Source: Mobula hypostoma (Eukaryota). Taken from it: a DNA stretch of 64,000 nt. Below the pieces are notes generated by a model. The model had not been told where the DNA came from and did not search any database. It saw only the letters and a list, made by a program, of their open reading frames with translations. Location of the stretch: contig NC_086097.1 of NCBI RefSeq assembly GCF_963921235.1, forward strand, positions 49,726,001 to 49,790,000, written 5' to 3'. Position numbers and translations under genes: made by a program. Positions 1 through 59,418 of the stretch are shown here, in pieces (position 1 is the stretch's first letter; each line of letters begins with the position of its first letter).

Positions 1-410
1 TTGGGTTGCCTCCAACCTGACGACATGAACATCGATTTCTCAAACTTCCAGTAGTGCCCCCTCCCACTCCTTCACCATTTCCCAGTTCCATTTCCCTCTT
101 TCTCCTTATCTCCTTACCTACTCCTCTTCTTCCCTTTTTTCCATGGCGTTCTGTCCTCTCCTATCAGATTCTGCCTTCTCCAGACCTTTATCTTTTTCAC
201 CTATCGACTTCCCAGCTCTTTCCTTCACCCCTCTCCCCCTCCCAGTTTCACCTACCACCTTCCTCCCCCACTCCCACCTTCTCACACTAACTCCTTACCA
301 TTTTTCTCCAGTTCTGATGAAGGGCTTCGGCCCAAAACATCGACTGTTAACTCTTGCACGGATGCTGCCTGGCCTGCTGAGTTCCTCCGGCATTTTATCT
401 GTGTTGCTAA
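1..410 (+). mobile_element. Penelope-like element 3' end (GIY-YIG C-terminus, pyrimidine-rich UTR, pseudo-LTR)
   Basis: Begins LGCLQPDDMNIDFSNFQ*, matching the ORF ends at ~56430-56490 and ~57890-57950. Followed by a CT-rich tract, a hammerhead motif and gatgctgcctggcctgctgagttcctcc, as in the other copies. Confidence 0.8.
309..346 (+). ncRNA. Degenerate minimal hammerhead ribozyme motif
   Basis: CAGTT-CTGATGA-A-GGGC(TTCG)GCCC-AAAA-CATC-GACTG. GAAA>AAAA and CGTC>CATC are CpG-type decays. Confidence 0.65.
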
Positions 411-35176: not shown

Positions 35177-35455
35177 TGCATACAAAATGCTGGAGGAACT
35201 CAGCAGGTCAGACAGCATCTTCGGAAAGGAATGAACAGTCTATGTTTCCATCCGAGGCCCTTCATCAGATTTGGGGACCAGAGACTCTTCATCAGGGTGA
35301 AGGGTTTCGGCCCGAAAAACTAGCACATACAAAATGCTGGAGGAATTCAGCAGGTCAAGCAGCCTCTATGGAAAGGGATAAAGAAGTCAATTTTCTCCAG
35401 CATTTTGTGTGTGTTACACTGGATTTCCAGCATCTACAGAATCTCCTGTGTCAGT
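35177..35455. mobile_element. Miniature Penelope-pLTR-derived fold-back element
   Basis: Two minus-strand pLTR pieces, three hammerhead core fragments and a plus-strand tail. Flanks gaaagatga (35168-35176) / gaaaaatga (35456-35464). Confidence 0.7.
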
Positions 35456-38169: not shown

Positions 38170-39335
38170 TGACGGTATTAGAAGAATTGTTGATAGATAA
38201 CTCTGGAGCTCTCCCATCCACACCACCAAACTCAGAGTTCCCATACCCTGCACTGCTTGTTTCTACCTCCTACCCGAAGTCCACAAACTTAACTGTCCAG
38301 GTAGGCCCATTGTTTCTGCCTGCTCCTGCTGAACTTGGGTCCTCATATTCTGACTTCATTCTAGCTCCTTGGTTCAGTCCCTTTCTACCTACATCCACAA
38401 CACTCCTCATGCTCTCGATCTCCTCAATAACTTTCAATTCCCTGGCCTGACTGCCTCACTTTCACCATGGATGTCCAGTCCCTATACATTTCTACACCCT
38501 CCCCCAACCCCATCAAGAAGGCTTTAAACTTCTCAATAAATAAATAGCCAGCTCCCCTCCACCACCACCCTCCTCCATCTGACAGAACTAGGACTCGCCC
38601 TCTACAACTTCTCCTCAGCCTCTTCCCACTTTCGCCAGATTTGAGGTGTAAATTTGAGGGCAACCGCATGAGCCCCAATCATGCCTGCCTTTTAGATGGC
38701 TACGAAGAGCAGACCATGTTCAAAGCCTTCTCTGGTAATGCTCCCCAATTCTTCCTCTGCTACATTGAAGAACTCATTGCTGCTGTTTCATACACCCATG
38801 CTGAGCTTGTCAATTTCATCAGCTTTACCTCCATCTTCCACCCTGCCCTTAAGTTCAATCTCTCTGTCTCCATCTCTGAAGCCAAATGGTCTACCGGCAT
38901 CTTTTATAAACCTATCAATTCCCATGGTTGTCTTAACTACACATCTTCCTACCCTGTCTCCTGTAAAAATGCTGTTCTCTTTTCTCAGTTCCTTCCTCTC
39001 CTGTGCATCTGTTCCAAGGATGCGGCTTTCCTTTCCAGGACTTCAGAGGTGTCCTCCTTCTTTGAAAAAAAAGGGGTTTCCCTTCCTCCATCATTGATGT
39101 TGCCCTCACCCACATCTGCACTCACCCCATCTTCCAGCCACCTTAACAGGGATAGAGTTCTTCTTGTCCTCATCTATTACCCTGTCCAACACATCACTCT
39201 CCACAATTTCCACCATCTTCAATAGGATCCTACCACCAAACACATTGGTGTGATTCATCGTAAACTGGGTGACCACTTATATTCCGTCTGGTTAGCCTCC
39301 AACCTGATGGCATAAATATTGATTTCTCCTTCCGT
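38170..39335 (+). mobile_element. Decayed Penelope-like element (RT)
   Basis: FTMDVQSLY and MSPNHACLLDGYEEQTMF; colinear with 55035-56925, with an internal deletion. Confidence 0.8.
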
Positions 39336-45510: not shown

Positions 45511-45646
45511 CAAACATGAGAAATTCTGCAGAGGCTGTAAATCCAAAGTAACACGCACAAAATGCTAGAGGAGCTCAGGTCAGGCAGCATCCATGGAAAA
45601 GTGTAAATGGTTGACACTTTGAGCCAAGAGCCTTCTTCGGCACTGG
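45510..45646 (-). mobile_element. Penelope pLTR fragment with a degraded hammerhead
   Basis: Reverse complement reads ccagtg-ccgaaga-aggctcttggctc-aaag-tgtc..ggatgctgcctgacc..tail. Confidence 0.6.
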
Positions 45647-50894: not shown

Positions 50895-53072
50895 ACCAAG
50901 CAGAAAAAAGGCGACCTAACAGTTGTCTGGTTAGACCTTGCAAATGCCTACAGGTCTATTCCACGTGACCTCATGCTATAAGGACTCGACACTACTACAT
51001 CCCAGTGGCTATTCGAGACATGATCACCAGCTACCTAGGAGGATTCAAACTCAGATTTACATCAGCCCATTTCACAACTAGTTGGCAGGACCTCCAGAAG
51101 GCGATTCCAACAGGGGGCACCATCTCCCCCATCCTATTTATTATGGGAATGAACCTCCTATTATCAGCAGCAGAAGATGTAACCCACGGCCCGACGCTGG
51201 AGTTGGGTATTGTTCAGCCGGCTCTACGAGGGTTCATGGACGATGTCACTATAACAACTGTGTCACACGTCCGAGAAAGATGCGTATTGGAAACCCTGGG
51301 TAATGTAGCCACTTGGGCGAGGATGTCCTTCAAGACCAAGAAGTCCAGGTGCATGGTGATCAGAAAGGGTAAAGTTATAGCAAGTTTAGCCTCCAAGTTC
51401 AGGGTGAGGTCATCCCTTCCATCGAAAATAACCCGATAAAATGCTTGGGGAAGTGGTTTAATGTGTCACTGACAGATGGGGACAATGTCGCCGATGCTGT
51501 GAAGCAGACAGAGGAATGGCTGAAGAAGATCGACAAATCCAGACTTCCGGGTAAATTCAAGACCTGGCTGTACCAATACGGCATTCTGCCCAGGCTTCTC
51601 TGGCTCTTCACACTTTATGAGTTCCCCATGACTGTCGTAGAGGGCATCGAGAGGAAAACCAACAAGCACCTGCGGAGATGGTTGGGAGTTCCCTCAAGCT
51701 TCTCTTCAGCGGGCCTATACATTCGTTCTGGGCAACTGCAGCTTCCCCTGTCATCTGTTGTGGAGGAATTCAAGGTGGCAAAATGCAGAGCCTTATTAAG
51801 CTTGAGAGATTCTAATGTCGTCTTGGTAAAGCAAGCAGGCGTTACAACCAGATCTGAGCGCAAGTGGGCAGCCAACGCAGCTGTGGAGCAGGTGCTATGT
51901 TCTCTGAAGCTGCGAGATATCATCGGCAATCCTTGAGTCGGGCGGCAAGGCCTCGGCTCAGTTCACTTCCAGAAGTGGGGAAACTCAAGCATAAGGAACA
52001 GGCAAGACATGCAGAAATATGGATCCGTGAGGAAGAGAAGCAGATTTCAAAGGCAGTGGAACAAGGGTCCCAGGGTACCTGGACAAAATGGGATCTGCCT
52101 AAGCGCAAGATCTCATGGGCAGAGTTATGAAGACGGGAGCCCTTCCATATTTCCTTCCTCTTGTGATCCGTGTATGACACCCTTCCTTCACCATTACATT
52201 TGTACACATGGGGGATGAGAGAGGACCTGAACTGTAAGCTCTGTGGTCAGAAGGGGACACTGGCTCATATACTGTCCGGGTGTAAAACAGCTCTAACTCA
52301 AGGACGGTATAGGTGGCGCCATGATAAGGTGCTTCTGGCTCTTGCTGACACACTAGAGCGGGAGAGATGCAAGAAGAGGACGGCTGGCACAGATTTGAGG
52401 AAGGCCATCACCTTCATCAAAGAGGGAGCCAGGCTTTTCGTAACCAAAAAACCAAAGCCCAATCTGCTGCTAACAGCCAAGTCCTGGGAGATGAGGGTCG
52501 ATGTGGGAAGGAGGTTGCAGTTCCTGGATGTGGTGCACACAACCCTACGCCCGGACATTGTACTGTGGTCAACGGAAGACAAGAAAATAATTGTGGTTGA
52601 GTTGACTGTGCCATGGGAGGAGGGATGGGAAGAGGCCCACGAGAGAAAGGCCTTGAAGTACCAGCCCTTACTGCAGGAGTGTAAAGACAAGGGATGGCAG
52701 GCATGGTTGTTCCCTGTGGAGATTGGCTGCAGAGGTTTTCCAGCCAAATCAGCATGGCGGTTGTTGTCAGATCTGGGCCTGGACGAAAGGAGCAAAAACA
52801 AGCAGCTTGTAGGATGGGGGAAGAGGCAGTACGAGCTTCTTGTTGGATTTGGATTAGGCGAGAGGAGGAGAGCTGGAAGCCGGGAGCAGACGGGCAGTGA
52901 TTTGGCCATCACTGCCTGCCCAGCAACTGGACAGTGTCGTGGTTAAGGTTGAAACACTTGGTGAAGGTTGGGAACCATCTGATGACATCTGCTCCTGGCT
53001 GAAGGTTACGGTTACCTTATACGGTAACTGGAGAATGCACCCTAACAGGTGTATGTAACAAGTAACAAGTAA
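50895..53072 (+). mobile_element. 5'-truncated R2-superfamily (Hero/NeSL-like) non-LTR retrotransposon: RT plus restriction-like endonuclease
   Basis: VVWLDLANAY, GGTISPILF, GFMDD. CCHC knuckle CKLCGQKGTLAHILSGC, RH motif RYRWRHD, RLE LRPDIVLW..IIVVELTVPWE..K..KY. Tail (aacaagt)2. Confidence 0.9.
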
Positions 53073-55035: not shown

Positions 55036-56925
55036 AGTCCAGCTGGTTCAGTCCCTTCCTACCTACATCTGTGATACTTCACACACTCTTGATCTTTTCA
55101 ATGATCTCAAGTTCCCTGGCCCTGATCAACTCGTTTTCACTATGGATGTCTAGTCCCCATACACCTCCATCCCCCATCAGGAGGGCCTCGAAGCTCTCCA
55201 CTTCTTTCTCGACAACAGACCCAAACTGTTGCCCTCCACCACCACCCTCATCCGTCTGACAGAACTGGTCCTCACTGTCAATAATTTCTCCTTTGGCTCC
55301 TCCCACTTCCTTAAAAAAAAAGGTGCAGCCATGGGCACTTGCATGGGTCCCAGCTAGGCCTGCCTTTTTGTCAGCTACGTGGTACAGTCTATGTTCCCAG
55401 CCTTCCCTAGTAATGGTCCCCGACTCATCCTACACTACACCAATGACTGCATTGGAGCTGCTTCCTGCACTCATGCTGAGCGCATCGACTTCATCAGCTT
55501 TGCCTCCAACTTCCACCCTGCCCCCACATTTACTTGGTCCATTTCTAACACCTCCCTCTCCTTTCTCAATCTCTGAAGACTGTCTACCTACTAATATCTT
55601 TTCCATCCTACTGATTCTCACAGCTACCTGGACTATACTTCTTCCCACCCTGTCACTCGAAAAATGCCACCCCCTTCTCTCAGTTCCTCTATCTCCACCA
55701 CATCTGCTTTCAGGATGAGGCTCTTCATTCCAGCACTAATGAGATGTCTTCCTTCTTCAATGGAAGGGGCTTTCCTTCCTCCACCGTCAACACTGCCCTC
55801 ACCCGCGTCTCTTCCATTTCACACACGTCTGCCCTTAACCTAACCTCCCGCCACTAGACCAGAGATAGGGTTCCTCTTGTCCTCACCTACCACCCCACCA
55901 GCCACAGCGCCCAACACATAATTCTCTGTAACTTCTGTCATCTCCAACTGGATCCCACTGCCAAGCACATCTTCCCATTTTTCCTCTCTCCCATCTTTCT
56001 GCTTTCCACAGGAATTGCTCCCTCCGCGATTCCCTTGTCTCCCCATTCACCCCCCCCCACTGATCTCCATCCTGGCACTTATCCTTGCAAGCAGAACAAG
56101 GGCCACACCTGCCCCTACACCACTCCCTCTCTACCATTCAGAGCCCCAAACATTCCTTCCAGGTGAGGTGAAACTTCACCGGTGAGTCTGTTGGGGTCAT
56201 CTCCTGTATCCATTGCTCTCAGTGTGGCCTCCTGTGTATTGTTGAGACCCAATATAGATTGGGAGACCGCTTTGCTGAGCACTTTTGCTCTGTCCACCAG
56301 GAAAAGCAGGATCTCCGTCGCCACCCATTTCAATTCCACCTCTCATTCCCATTTTGACATGTCAGTCCATGGCCTCATCTTCTGCCCTGATAAGGCCACT
56401 CTTAGGTTAGGAGAGCGACACCTTATATTCCTTCTGAGTAGCCTCCAACCCAAAGGCATGAGCATCGATTTCTTAATCTTCTGGTAACTGTCCACCCCCT
56501 GCCCCCTCCCCTTCACCATTTCCCTTTCCTGTTTTCCTCTCTCTCCTATCTCCTTACTTGCCCATCACCCCCCTCCGGTGCTCCTCCTCTGTCCCTTTCT
56601 TCTGTAATTTTCTACCCCCTCCTATCACATTCCCCTTCCTCCAGCCCTTTGTCTCTTTCACCAATCAACTTCCCAGCTCTTTACTTCATCCTTTCCCCCT
56701 CTCCCAGTTTCACCTATCACCTGCCACCTCGTGCTTCTCCTTCCCTTCCCCCACCTTCTTGCTCTGATTTCTCATTCGTTTTTCCTGTCCTAATGAAGGG
56801 ACTAAGTCCAAAACGCCGACTGTTTATTCATTTCCATGGATGCTGCCTGACCAGCTGAGTCCCTCCAGCATTTTGTGGGGTTCACCTCAGATTTCCAGCA
56901 TCTGCAGATTTTTCTCATATTTGCG
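55036..56925 (+). mobile_element. Penelope-like element (RT, Cys-rich linker, GIY-YIG endonuclease, pLTR), probably Neptune-type
   Basis: LVQSLPTYI..FTMDV, KGAAMG, GTYPCKQNKGHTCPY. Decayed GIY-YIG GVISCIHCSQCGLLCIVETQYRLGDRFAEH, then LQPKGMSIDF. Hammerhead remnant at 56785-56822. Confidence 0.88.
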
Positions 56926-57517
56926 CGCATAGGAATAATAGTGTCTTCTCCATCTGTGATTACTGATATATATTACTTCTGCATACTTTTGAATGTAGTA
57001 TAACCAGTTTGTATGACCTTACTGTGACCGAGGCCACGCTCCATTTCAGCTGACAAAATCTAACAGAAATGAGGAAGAAACACTTCTATGTATTTTTAAA
57101 CTGGTATTGTGTTCATTACTTTTAAGAATACCAGAAGGGAACTTAGTGCCTAGCGATCTATTTACTTCTGATTCTAAGAAAGCACACCATGCTTAGTTCC
57201 TCTTTTATAACTAAACAATCGCCATACTAATTTCTTAGTCTTGTGTATTTTAATATGAAGTCCCAATAGATAAACACACATTGTGTGTATATTTAGACTG
57301 TAATTTTAATTATGTATGCACTTTTCTAAGAGTATTCTGTCTTCTGATGTCGTGACAGATAATGAAATTGCATCTTTGATCAAATTTCAAATCTTTATTG
57401 AAAATAAAAATCTTCCATTTGTTTCTGGTCTTATTGGATCTAGCATCATAATTCAATAAACACACATAAAATGCTGGTGGAACGCAGCAGGCCAGGCAGC
57501 ATCTATAGGAAGAAGTA

Positions 57518-57555
57518 CAGTCGACATTTCAGGTTGAGACCTTTCGTCAGGACTA
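57518..57555 (-). ncRNA. Minimal hammerhead ribozyme motif
   Basis: Reverse complement: TAGTC-CTGACGA-A-AGGT(CTCA)ACCT-GAAA-T-GTC-GACTG. Confidence 0.75.
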
Positions 57556-57808
57556 ACGGAAAAAAGAGATAGTAAGAGATTTGAAAGTGGGAAAGTGGGA
57601 GGGGGAGGGGGAGACCTGAAATGATAGAAGACAGGAGAGGGAGGGATGAAGCCAGGAGCTGGGAAGTTGATTGGCAAAAGGGATACAAGGCTGGAGAAGG
57701 GGGAGGATCATGGGACAGAAGGCCTTGGAAGAAAGAAAGGGGAGGGCAGCACCAGAGGAAGATGGAGAACAGGCAAGAAGTTATTGTGAGAAGGAAAGAG
57801 AGAGAAAA

Positions 57809-57811
<3 letters not shown>

Positions 57812-57842
<31 letters not shown>
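57812..57842. repeat. (GA)n microsatellite
   Basis: Direct read. Confidence 0.95.
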
Positions 57843-57846
<4 letters not shown>

Positions 57847-58261
57847 ATTAATTAATAGGGATGAGGTAAGAAGGGGAAGAGGGGTATTAACGGAAGTTAG
57901 AGAAATCAATGTTCATGCCATCAGGTTGGAGGCTACCCAGATGGAATATAAGGTGTTGTTCCTCCAACCTGAGTGTGGCTTCATCTGGACAGTAGAGGCG
58001 GCTATGGATTGATATATCGGAATGGGAATGGGACGTGGAATTAAAATGTGTGGCCACTGGGAGATCCTGCTTCCTCTGGTGCTCCCCTCCCCCTTTCTTT
58101 CTTCCAAGGCCTTCCGTCCCATGATACTCCCCCTTCTTCAGCCTTATATCCCTTTTGCCAATGAACTTCTCAGCTCTTGGTTTCTTCCCTCCCCCTCCTG
58201 TCTTCTCCTATCATTTTGGGTCTCCCCCTCCCACTTTCAAATCTCGTACTCTCTTTTCTGT

Positions 58262-58299
58262 TAGTCCTGACGAAGGGGCTTGACCCGAAACGTTGACTG
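58262..58299 (+). ncRNA. Minimal hammerhead ribozyme motif, intact core
   Basis: TAGTC-CTGACGA-A-GGG(GCTTGA)CCC-GAAA-C-GTT-GACTG. Predicted cleavage after 58294. Confidence 0.8.
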
Positions 58300-59418
58300 T
58301 ACCTCTTCCTATAGATGCTGCCTGGCCTGCTGCGTTCACCAGCAATTTGTGTGTGTTGCTTGAATTTCCAGCACCTGCAGATTTTCTCATGTTTGCGATC
58401 ATAATTCAGTGATCATTATAAGAAAGTAAACAGGTTAAGCAAAGAGAAAACCGGATCTTGGATTTCTGAGAATTCTATTGCTAATTCACAAATTGTTAAT
58501 CATATACTGTATACCCAGTATAAGCATTCTGATACAAGTGGCCTCTCTCCTTCTTTTGTTGTTTTTTTCTATGATTCTGACTTTTTTGGTAAAAAATAGA
58601 TCCACATCCTTCTATTCAAAGAAGAAAAAAAGCAATCCATTCTGCTAAGGTAGCAAAATATCTTTTTCATTAAACATTACTGTATATTACAAATAATTAA
58701 AGACGTTTAACATGACATTATTACAATGATATGTTCTGCTAATACAACTATGTAACCTGCTCATGGGCTAAGATATAGACTCTTCATATTGTAAAGTGTT
58801 TTTAGTTAAAGTTCTTATGGAAGTCGGTAAGGCAGTCCAATTGACTGCCAATATGCCTTTAATGGTATTTACATTTTCTGCTACATTAGAACTGAAAAGA
58901 GAAGACTCCAAATTCTCATGCAGTACTAAACCTATAAGTAGCCGATATTGTAAGTTTGCTTTCTTTTTACCTTTCTGCAAAATGTATCATTTACAAAGCC
59001 AAGAGGGAGGATGTTGCAGCTCAGTCATTCTCAGGCATTACTAATCATTGCGAGATTGCACATATTGCTTGGAATGAGTTTCAGTATGAGTTACTTGCTA
59101 AATTCCTGCCCCAACTTTCATTTGCCATTCCCCTCCCTCTCCACTGGCAATACCCTACCCTCATGTCTATAGTAAAATGACTCAGCATTACTTACTAATT
59201 ATAAAAATCCTGCTAATCAGAATGCAACATGTAACTGTTTTTACTTGTTGCACAGCAGACAGTTAGAGAACAAGAAATGCTGCCTTGTTTTAAATGGCAT
59301 GATCATGCTCTATGGGAAAGCCTCAGAGACAACTGGAACTTTTCAAATTGTTAAGTATTATGATTGAATGTTGAACTTTGAGAAGACAATCAAAGTAAAT
59401 TTGTTATCAAAATATATA

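What the first reader, a model, noticed from the sequence alone, without database searches (positions are those of the whole stretch)
57456..58397. Fold-back Penelope insertion with a near-intact hammerhead ribozyme on each strand
Seen: an exact 11-bp TSD encloses inverted arms of about 300 bp (57456-~57763 versus ~58070-58357) around a GIY-YIG C-terminal remnant. Only the right arm has the extra ~40-nt tail. Each arm keeps CUGACGA, GAAA and an NUH triplet (GUC, GUU) with stems I and II, and the plus copy keeps the palindromic ACGU in place of helix III. Established: Penelope elements form inverted pLTR structures, and their minimal hammerheads cleave as dimers. Inference: transcription from either direction yields an RNA with one ribozyme and its own antisense. 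Long-hairpin formation (ADAR or Dicer substrate) would then compete with cleavage, giving a potential self-silencing switch.
Basis: partly seen in the sequence, partly recalled or inferred. Interest (0 to 1): 0.75.

Follow-up and report, generated by a model that had tools for sequence, protein, structure and literature searches.

The report
Ordinary head-to-head Penelope-like retroelement insertion
This mirror-image repeat is a real but old and decaying insertion of two truncated copies of a Penelope-like jumping gene, a shape already described and present in an estimated tens of thousands of places in this genome; its two ribozyme motifs are predicted to be smothered by the hairpin, so it likely does not work as a switch.

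Summary
Observation confirmed: TSD, inverted arms (261/289 identical), one-sided 40-nt tail, endonuclease remnant and both minimal hammerheads are where stated. The TSD is probably 14 bp with two transitions. The locus is two 5'-truncated Neptune-type PLE copies joined head to head at an 11/12-nt microhomology. This shape, and dual hammerheads on opposite strands, are in print (PMC3846280, PMC8557442, PMC4209133), and this scan noted it before on other DNA (179 findings). It is common here: 5 TSD-bounded cases in 600 kb of unselected DNA. The 'switch' is not supported. In either direction the antisense arm is transcribed before the ribozyme, and folding the ribozyme costs a predicted 41-46 kcal/mol. 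Both motifs have decayed at least as fast as their flanks, mostly at CpG sites (3/36, 4/36 changes). The arms share no derived change, so there is no sign of conversion or of selection on the hairpin. The by-product of value is mechanistic: 42 of 42 TSD-bounded pairs carry exactly one tail, and either arm can be the longer, which fits priming from both nicked strands better than snap-back.

The parts
57445..57458 (.). Left target-site duplication (11 bp exact, 57445-57455; probably 14 bp with two transitions)
   Evidence: family boundary at 57459; TSD size distribution
57459..58081 (-). 5'-truncated PLE copy A: end of endonuclease ORF, 3' UTR with (GA)n tract, hammerhead, ends at the tailless site
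57890..58081 (-). Last 64 codons of the GIY-YIG endonuclease domain, frame still open
   Evidence: translation; 91-95% identical to many copies; same C-terminus as 793-aa ORF in L171
57519..57554 (-). Minimal type-I hammerhead, copy A (GUC triplet; AUGU instead of ACGU; A-U at 10.1-11.1); predicted cut after 57523
58070..58081 (.). Junction microhomology (11 of 12 nt) between an endonuclease-coding stretch and the 3' UTR
58070..58397 (+). 5'-truncated PLE copy B: 3' UTR part, hammerhead, 40-nt tail
58263..58298 (+). Minimal type-I hammerhead, copy B (ACGU kept; GUU triplet; stem II 3 bp); predicted cut after 58294
58358..58397 (+). PLE tail, present on this arm only
58398..58411 (.). Right target-site duplication (11 bp exact, 58398-58408; probably 14 bp)

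Best explanation
It is an old head-to-head insertion of two 5'-truncated copies of a Neptune-type Penelope-like retrotransposon, likely made in one event and likely neutral since. The element protein likely nicked both DNA strands about 14 bp apart and primed one cDNA from each nick, one from the tail-side start site and one from the start site 40 nt upstream. The cDNAs stopped after about 330 and 620 nt and likely annealed through an 11/12-nt inverted microhomology. The hammerheads are inherited parts of the element's terminal repeat. In a read-through transcript from either side they would be trapped in a ~290-bp hairpin and would not cleave.
For: Shown: family ORF has RT (PF00078, E 1.2e-5, under Pfam's cut-off), DKG motif, CX4CxxC linker and GIY-CxxC-YIG endonuclease, the Neptune/Nematis features of PMC8557442. 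42 of 49 head-to-head pairs had a TSD (null 2 of 150) and 42 of those 42 have exactly one tail; 35 of them were fetched without a tail in the query. The tailless arm is longer in 19, the tailed arm in 15, about equal in 8 (my tally); here the tailed arm is the shorter, which a snap-back of one cDNA cannot give. Arms share a near-private variant in 3 of 9 and 5 of 20 fold-backs against 6.8% and 2.9% of unrelated pairs. Neutral decay here: arms are 4.1% and 2.9% from the family majority at non-CpG sites (median 4.0%), share 0 derived changes and rank 41st and 23rd of 68 as each other's neighbour; hammerheads 3/36 and 4/36 changed versus 12/252 and 9/259 outside; G-U wobble bias 12 vs 7, p = 0.36. 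A contig of organism D joins both flanks with 122 letters between, against 1031 here. From print: PAc nicks and extends both strands and has two RT start sites that bracket the tail (PMC11167929).
Against: No intermediate was observed; the two-ended model is inferred. This locus's own arms share no private variant, so one RNA versus two cannot be told here, and they differ at 4 of 18 family-variable sites. L058 (6 of 11) and L162 (9 of 31) have arms that look like different sub-lineages. A>G was only 1 of 11 shared variants. Tailless/tailless pairs without a TSD exist (L060; L060, L101). Organism D's site has 44 letters more than a clean empty site (122 vs 78), so it is not a base-exact pre-insertion allele. 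The insertion is retained at its left junction in organisms B and C, which neutrality allows but does not require. With about 300 bp per arm, weak selection would be missed.
Confidence: 0.78

Rival explanations
1. One reading: a transcript of this locus chooses between ribozyme cleavage and a long hairpin that feeds ADAR or Dicer, and this regulates the element or a host gene.
For: Both cores and stem I are intact; in isolation stems I and II form with probability 0.84-0.99. The hairpin is very stable (-566.5 kcal/mol). The insertion has persisted in at least three species labels.
Against: Antisense precedes ribozyme in both directions; penalty 41-46 kcal/mol. Even without the antisense arm, 250 nt of upstream context drops stem I probability to 1e-4 and 6e-3. 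Minimal PLE hammerheads did not cleave as monomers and were weak as dimers (PMC4209133); the Anolis one needed the element protein, and no RNA-seq ends were seen at its cut site (PMC11167929). The double-hammerhead form is predicted less stable than two monomers (by 1.7 and 5.6 kcal/mol). No conservation signal. 36 of 69 family copies keep core plus stems, and 11 of 42 TSD-bounded fold-backs keep both, so two intact motifs need no selection.
Confidence: 0.05
2. Same neutral insertion, but made by self-priming (snap-back) on one antisense template, as proposed for Adineta PLEs.
For: Proposed in PMC3846280 from junction palindromes; many mini fold-backs here have palindromic junctions inside the hammerhead; arms usually belong to the same sub-lineage; the junction microhomology fits intramolecular annealing too.
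Against: Here the tail sits on the shorter arm and the longer arm holds 300 nt that the tailed arm lacks, so neither arm can be a simple copy of the other; both length orders occur (19 vs 15).
Confidence: 0.12
3. Two independent insertions, the second targeted into or beside the first, giving a chance inverted pair.
For: PLEs cluster (another, older copy lies at 55043-56931); the arms are no closer to each other than to other copies; L002 looks like such a case (72% vs 77% arms, no TSD).
Against: One TSD encloses both copies and there is no second TSD at the junction; both arms are of the same age class; the one-tail rule holds in 42 of 42; head-to-head pairs outnumber tail-to-tail 16 to 6 in 600 kb.
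Confidence: 0.05

Closest known systems
Canonical EN+ PLE insertion with inverted 5'-truncated copy, one-sided 30-40-bp tail and TSD (PMC8557442 Fig. 2 legend; Pen2/Pen2a_Av in PMC3846280)
   Same: Head-to-head inverted copies, tail on one end, one TSD round the whole unit, hammerhead in the terminal repeat.
   Different: Both copies are short and there is no full ORF; TSDs here are longer (11-18 bp, mode 14) than the 8-10 bp reported for Adineta.
Dual minimal hammerheads 100-700 bp apart on opposite strands in Schistosoma PLEs (PMC4209133)
   Same: Two minimal type-I motifs on opposite strands about 710 bp apart; extra A between positions 9 and 10.1; palindromic 15.2-16.2.
   Different: Vertebrate host; stem II of 4 bp rather than 7-8 bp; here TSD and tail were mapped.
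PAc (Poseidon of Anolis), PMC11167929
   Same: Tail defined by two end points; hammerhead just upstream; supplies the both-strand priming used in the model.
   Different: Penelope/Poseidon clade lacks the CX2-5CxxC linker that this family has; the parts read do not derive inverted insertions from both-strand priming.
L1 twin priming (recalled; only search listings seen)
   Same: Two primers from opposite nicks, inverted junction with microhomology, single TSD.
   Different: In L1 the two cDNAs cover different parts of the RNA; here both cover the same 3' end, giving a fold-back.

Membership tests
EN+ Penelope-like elements | Single ORF with PLE-type RT and C-terminal GIY-YIG endonuclease with CCHH motif | tested here: met
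   Met by the family: 793-aa frame in L171 with DKG, RT core, GIY-CxxC-YIG and two later histidines. The locus holds only the last 64 codons.
EN+ Penelope-like elements | 5' truncation, inverted adjacent copy, 30-40-nt tail at one end | tested here: met
EN+ Penelope-like elements | Target-site duplication | tested here: met
   11 bp exact, probably 14 bp
Neptune clade | CX2-5CxxC linker between RT and EN | tested here: met
   CX4CxxC in L171, L172, L177; criterion from PMC8557442; shared with Nematis
Neptune clade | Placement by RT phylogeny | not tested
   No reference PLE RT set was at hand; no tree was built.
Penelope/Poseidon clade | Absence of the CX2-5CxxC linker | tested here: not met
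   Linker present, so not Penelope in the strict sense
Minimal type-I hammerhead of PLEs | CUGANGA, bulged nucleotide, GAAA, NUH, stems I and II | tested here: met
   Both copies; family stems pair in 32-39 of 40 motifs per position, with little covariation
Minimal type-I hammerhead of PLEs | Palindromic 15.1-16.1 and G10.1-C11.1 | tested here: inconclusive
   Plus copy meets both; minus copy meets neither (AUGU; A-U). G-U at 10.1-11.1 is common in the family (27 of 40), A-U rare (1 of 40).
Minimal type-I hammerhead of PLEs | Self-cleavage as a dimer | not testable with these tools
   Needs an in vitro assay
Rfam hammerhead families | Covariance-model match | tested here: not met
   No match
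Non-LTR retrozymes | Head-to-tail tandem monomers each with a hammerhead on the same strand | tested here: not met
   Copies are inverted, one motif per strand; definition from bioRxiv 10.64898/2026.07.22.740005 passages

The most novel reading that the evidence does not exclude
Neptune insertion is a two-ended reaction: a protein dimer nicks both strands about 14 bp apart and always assigns the tail-side start site to one nick and the upstream start site to the other, copying the same RNA (or RNA of one source) twice. This would explain the inverted repeats and one-sided tail of PLEs, and means the family's own mechanism has seeded tens of thousands of hairpin loci whose ribozymes are always trapped, a possible built-in source of silencing dsRNA.
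Probability: 0.5. Interest if true: 0.45.

Novelty: new member of a known kind. Interest (0 to 1): 0.17.

Why it matters
The locus itself matters little: it is one decaying copy of a described structure. As a class, these insertions record a PLE transposition step that the literature calls unexplained (PMC8557442). The strict one-tail rule and the free choice of the longer arm give a direct prediction for the existing in vitro PAc system and argue against the published self-priming idea. They also warn that two ribozymes on opposite strands is the expected by-product of PLE insertion, not a sign of regulation.

Tried and rejected
Expression: no RNA holder was listed for 56950-59400. Contigs of four presumed RNA runs (2 studies; one flagged probably DNA) left the unique flanks 56952-57198 and 58434-59174 uncovered, while the repeat parts drew short contigs of other copies; this is no evidence either way, and editing or cut ends cannot be read from contigs. 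Rfam: nothing relevant. Pfam on the 64-aa remnant: only a chance hit. Host gene: 148 of 1161 candidate unique frames in 264 kb were scanned; they gave a BTB-zinc-finger gene whose CpG island lies about 14 kb to the right, and two retroelement fragments; short exons could be missed. An AKT-like exon 117 kb to the left looks decayed, and no Pkinase_C match lies near (60 candidates scored). Gene conversion between arms: rejected here (0 shared changes), though L012 looks converted or privately templated (6/277 apart, 7 shared). One RNA versus two: not settled. Family-level lower divergence of the hammerhead (1.6% vs 3.3%) was not used, because many of the copies were found with hammerhead-containing queries. 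The 5'-end pile-up just upstream of the hammerhead was not used, because local alignments of old subfamilies can stop there. Lunse et al. (PMC5785218) was not held. Searches for a paper on shark PLE hammerhead inversions gave 0; for twin priming in PLEs none relevant among 11 listed; most subscription papers are outside the library.

Full report
Setting. The window lies at G000:C1:49,726,001-49,790,000 in a 3.48-Gb genome and is dominated by retroelement frames. I take the host for a cartilaginous fish from recalled repeat content; no call names it.

Observation. The 11-mer duplication occurs exactly twice in the window; the arms align at 261 of 289 columns; the right arm alone carries 40 extra bases; a 64-codon frame on the minus strand is the end of a PLE endonuclease. 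The cut positions given are right. One refinement: family copies in four DNA runs start at 57459, and the three bases after the 11-mer differ by two transitions, so the TSD is probably 14 bp, the commonest size among 42 related insertions (16 of 42).

Anatomy. The insert is two truncated copies joined at their 5' ends: copy A on the minus strand (58081 to 57459: ORF end, 3' UTR, hammerhead, no tail) and copy B on the plus strand (58070 to 58397: part of the UTR, hammerhead, tail). The junction uses a natural inverted match of 11 of 12 bases between the coding region and the UTR. A long family copy encodes a 793-aa frame with DKG motif, RT, a CX4CxxC linker and GIY-CxxC-YIG; by the criteria in PMC8557442 (passages) this is Neptune-type, not Penelope/Poseidon. 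No tree was built.

How common. In 60 unselected 10-kb stretches (600 kb) there were 78 family ends and 16 head-to-head pairs within 2.5 kb, against 6 tail-to-tail and 9 direct; scaled up, about 450,000 ends and 53,000-150,000 pairs. A stricter finder gave 5 TSD-bounded pairs in the same DNA, about 29,000 genome-wide by my arithmetic (roughly 9,000-68,000); the stretches come from the four largest contigs sampled only. The endonuclease remnant drew 159,433 first-look candidates. Of 42 TSD-bounded pairs across all loci, 11 keep core and stems in both arms; none of those 11 was among the 5 unselected ones.

Age and selection. Among 69 long copies the median non-CpG distance from the majority is 4.0%; the two arms are at 4.1% and 2.9%, share no derived change and are not each other's nearest neighbours. 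The hammerheads carry 3 and 4 changes in 36 bases, five of the seven at CpG columns, against 4.8% and 3.5% outside. The plus motif lost a stem-II pair and has GUU (still a cleavable triplet; PMC3138052 passages); the minus motif lost the palindrome and the G10.1-C11.1 pair that PMC4209133 calls highly conserved. Arm mismatches show no significant wobble bias (12 vs 7). In other species, contigs of organisms B and C run 11 and 24 bases into the left arm, while one contig of organism D joins both flanks with 122 letters between; a clean empty site would have 78. The insertion is thus probably younger than the split from D (flanks 6.5-8.6% apart) and older than the split from C.

The proposed switch. 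Geometry is the main objection: read from either side, the antisense arm comes first. Folding the transcript up to five bases past the ribozyme gives stem I probabilities below 1e-25 and a cost of 45.8 (plus) and 41.1 (minus) kcal/mol to hold the ribozyme fold; alone, the motifs form both stems with probability 0.84-0.99. These are equilibrium predictions and ignore proteins. The two motifs are on opposite strands, so no cis dimer is possible. In print, a minimal PLE hammerhead did not cleave as a monomer and only weakly as a dimer (PMC4209133, parts 1-2 of 4 read), and the Anolis one cleaved only with protein and was dispensable for insertion in vitro (PMC11167929, parts 1-2 of 4 read). So the expected outcome of any read-through is hairpin without cleavage. 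Whether the locus is transcribed could not be decided. No intact gene was found to span it; the nearest is a BTB-zinc-finger gene of ZBTB18 type starting about 14 kb to the right.

Mechanism of origin. Of 49 head-to-head pairs, 42 had a TSD (null 2 of 150), and all 42 have exactly one tail; 35 of these came from queries without the tail (duplicates L031, L141, L144, L145, L179 dropped first). After allowing for the tail, the tailless arm is longer in 19, the tailed arm in 15 and they are about equal in 8 (my tally; lengths from BLAST against one reference). Arms mostly share sub-lineage markers and share near-private variants more often than unrelated copies (3 of 9 and 5 of 20 against 6.8% and 2.9%; only pairs with both arms long were testable). 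With the in vitro finding that both strands are nicked and extended and that two RT start sites bracket the tail, the simplest reading is one cDNA from each nick, joined by microhomology. This is inference. The published alternative, self-priming on an antisense template (PMC3846280 passages), does not easily put the tail on the shorter arm. Against a single RNA: L058 and L162 look discordant, and this locus is uninformative.

Prior knowledge. The inverted copy with a one-sided tail is the textbook PLE unit (PMC8557442, PMC3846280, PMC8969392; passages). Dual minimal hammerheads 100-700 bp apart on opposite strands were reported in 2014 (PMC4209133). Dimer cleavage is summarised in PMC6765202 (passages); the Lunse paper itself was not seen. 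No supplements were opened. This scan's notes hold 179 similar findings in at least 28 genomes, including this one; these are unchecked AI notes and are not counted as support.

Verdict. Real, correctly described, ordinary. New member of a known kind; interest 0.17.

Noticed in passing
L038:747-969, L042:2895-3145, L103:2402-2609, L126:1935-2143, L172:5278-5488, L195:2939-3154 and others: Many mini fold-backs of about 190-250 bp with 12-18-bp TSDs whose junction lies inside or just 5' of the hammerhead core, i.e. upstream of the predicted cut site; 52 family ends in L061-L140 start in that 20-base bin, which may mark the RNA 5' end or only where alignments stop.
   Followed up: partly
L065:346-480 (-), G000:C1:49666346-49666480: AKT-type PH-domain exon (E 2.8e-11 to AKT3) with several substitutions and no AG at the expected acceptor; three related exons elsewhere. 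Possibly a decayed extra AKT paralogue, head to head with the ZBTB18-type gene.
   Followed up: partly
L071:8401-9000 and L071:9920 to L072:1304 (+): CpG island followed by an intact BTB plus C2H2 zinc-finger ORF of ZBTB18 type, about 14-16 kb right of the finding.
   Followed up: partly
window 55043-56931 (+): Older, longer copy of the same PLE family (about 77% to the long reference), with tail and a degenerate hammerhead, 525 bp left of the finding; in a plus-strand transcript it would pair with copy A.
   Followed up: partly
L012:1510-2344: Fold-back whose arms are only 6/277 apart and share 7 derived changes although each is 3-4% from the family majority: arm-to-arm conversion or a diverged single template.
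   Followed up: no
L058:1463-3054; L162:327-2086: TSD-bounded fold-backs whose arms carry different sub-lineage markers (6 of 11; 9 of 31): candidates for two-template insertions.
   Followed up: no
window 50969-52946 (+): Low-copy retroelement with RT (PF00078 E 6.2e-8) and a downstream cysteine/nuclease-like frame, unlike the common CR1-type repeats of the window; the restriction-like endonuclease reading is from recall.
   Followed up: no
window 134-408, 921-981, 35184-35440, 38201-39335, 45511-45601: Further fragments of the same PLE family, including a hammerhead core near 35268 (-).
   Followed up: no
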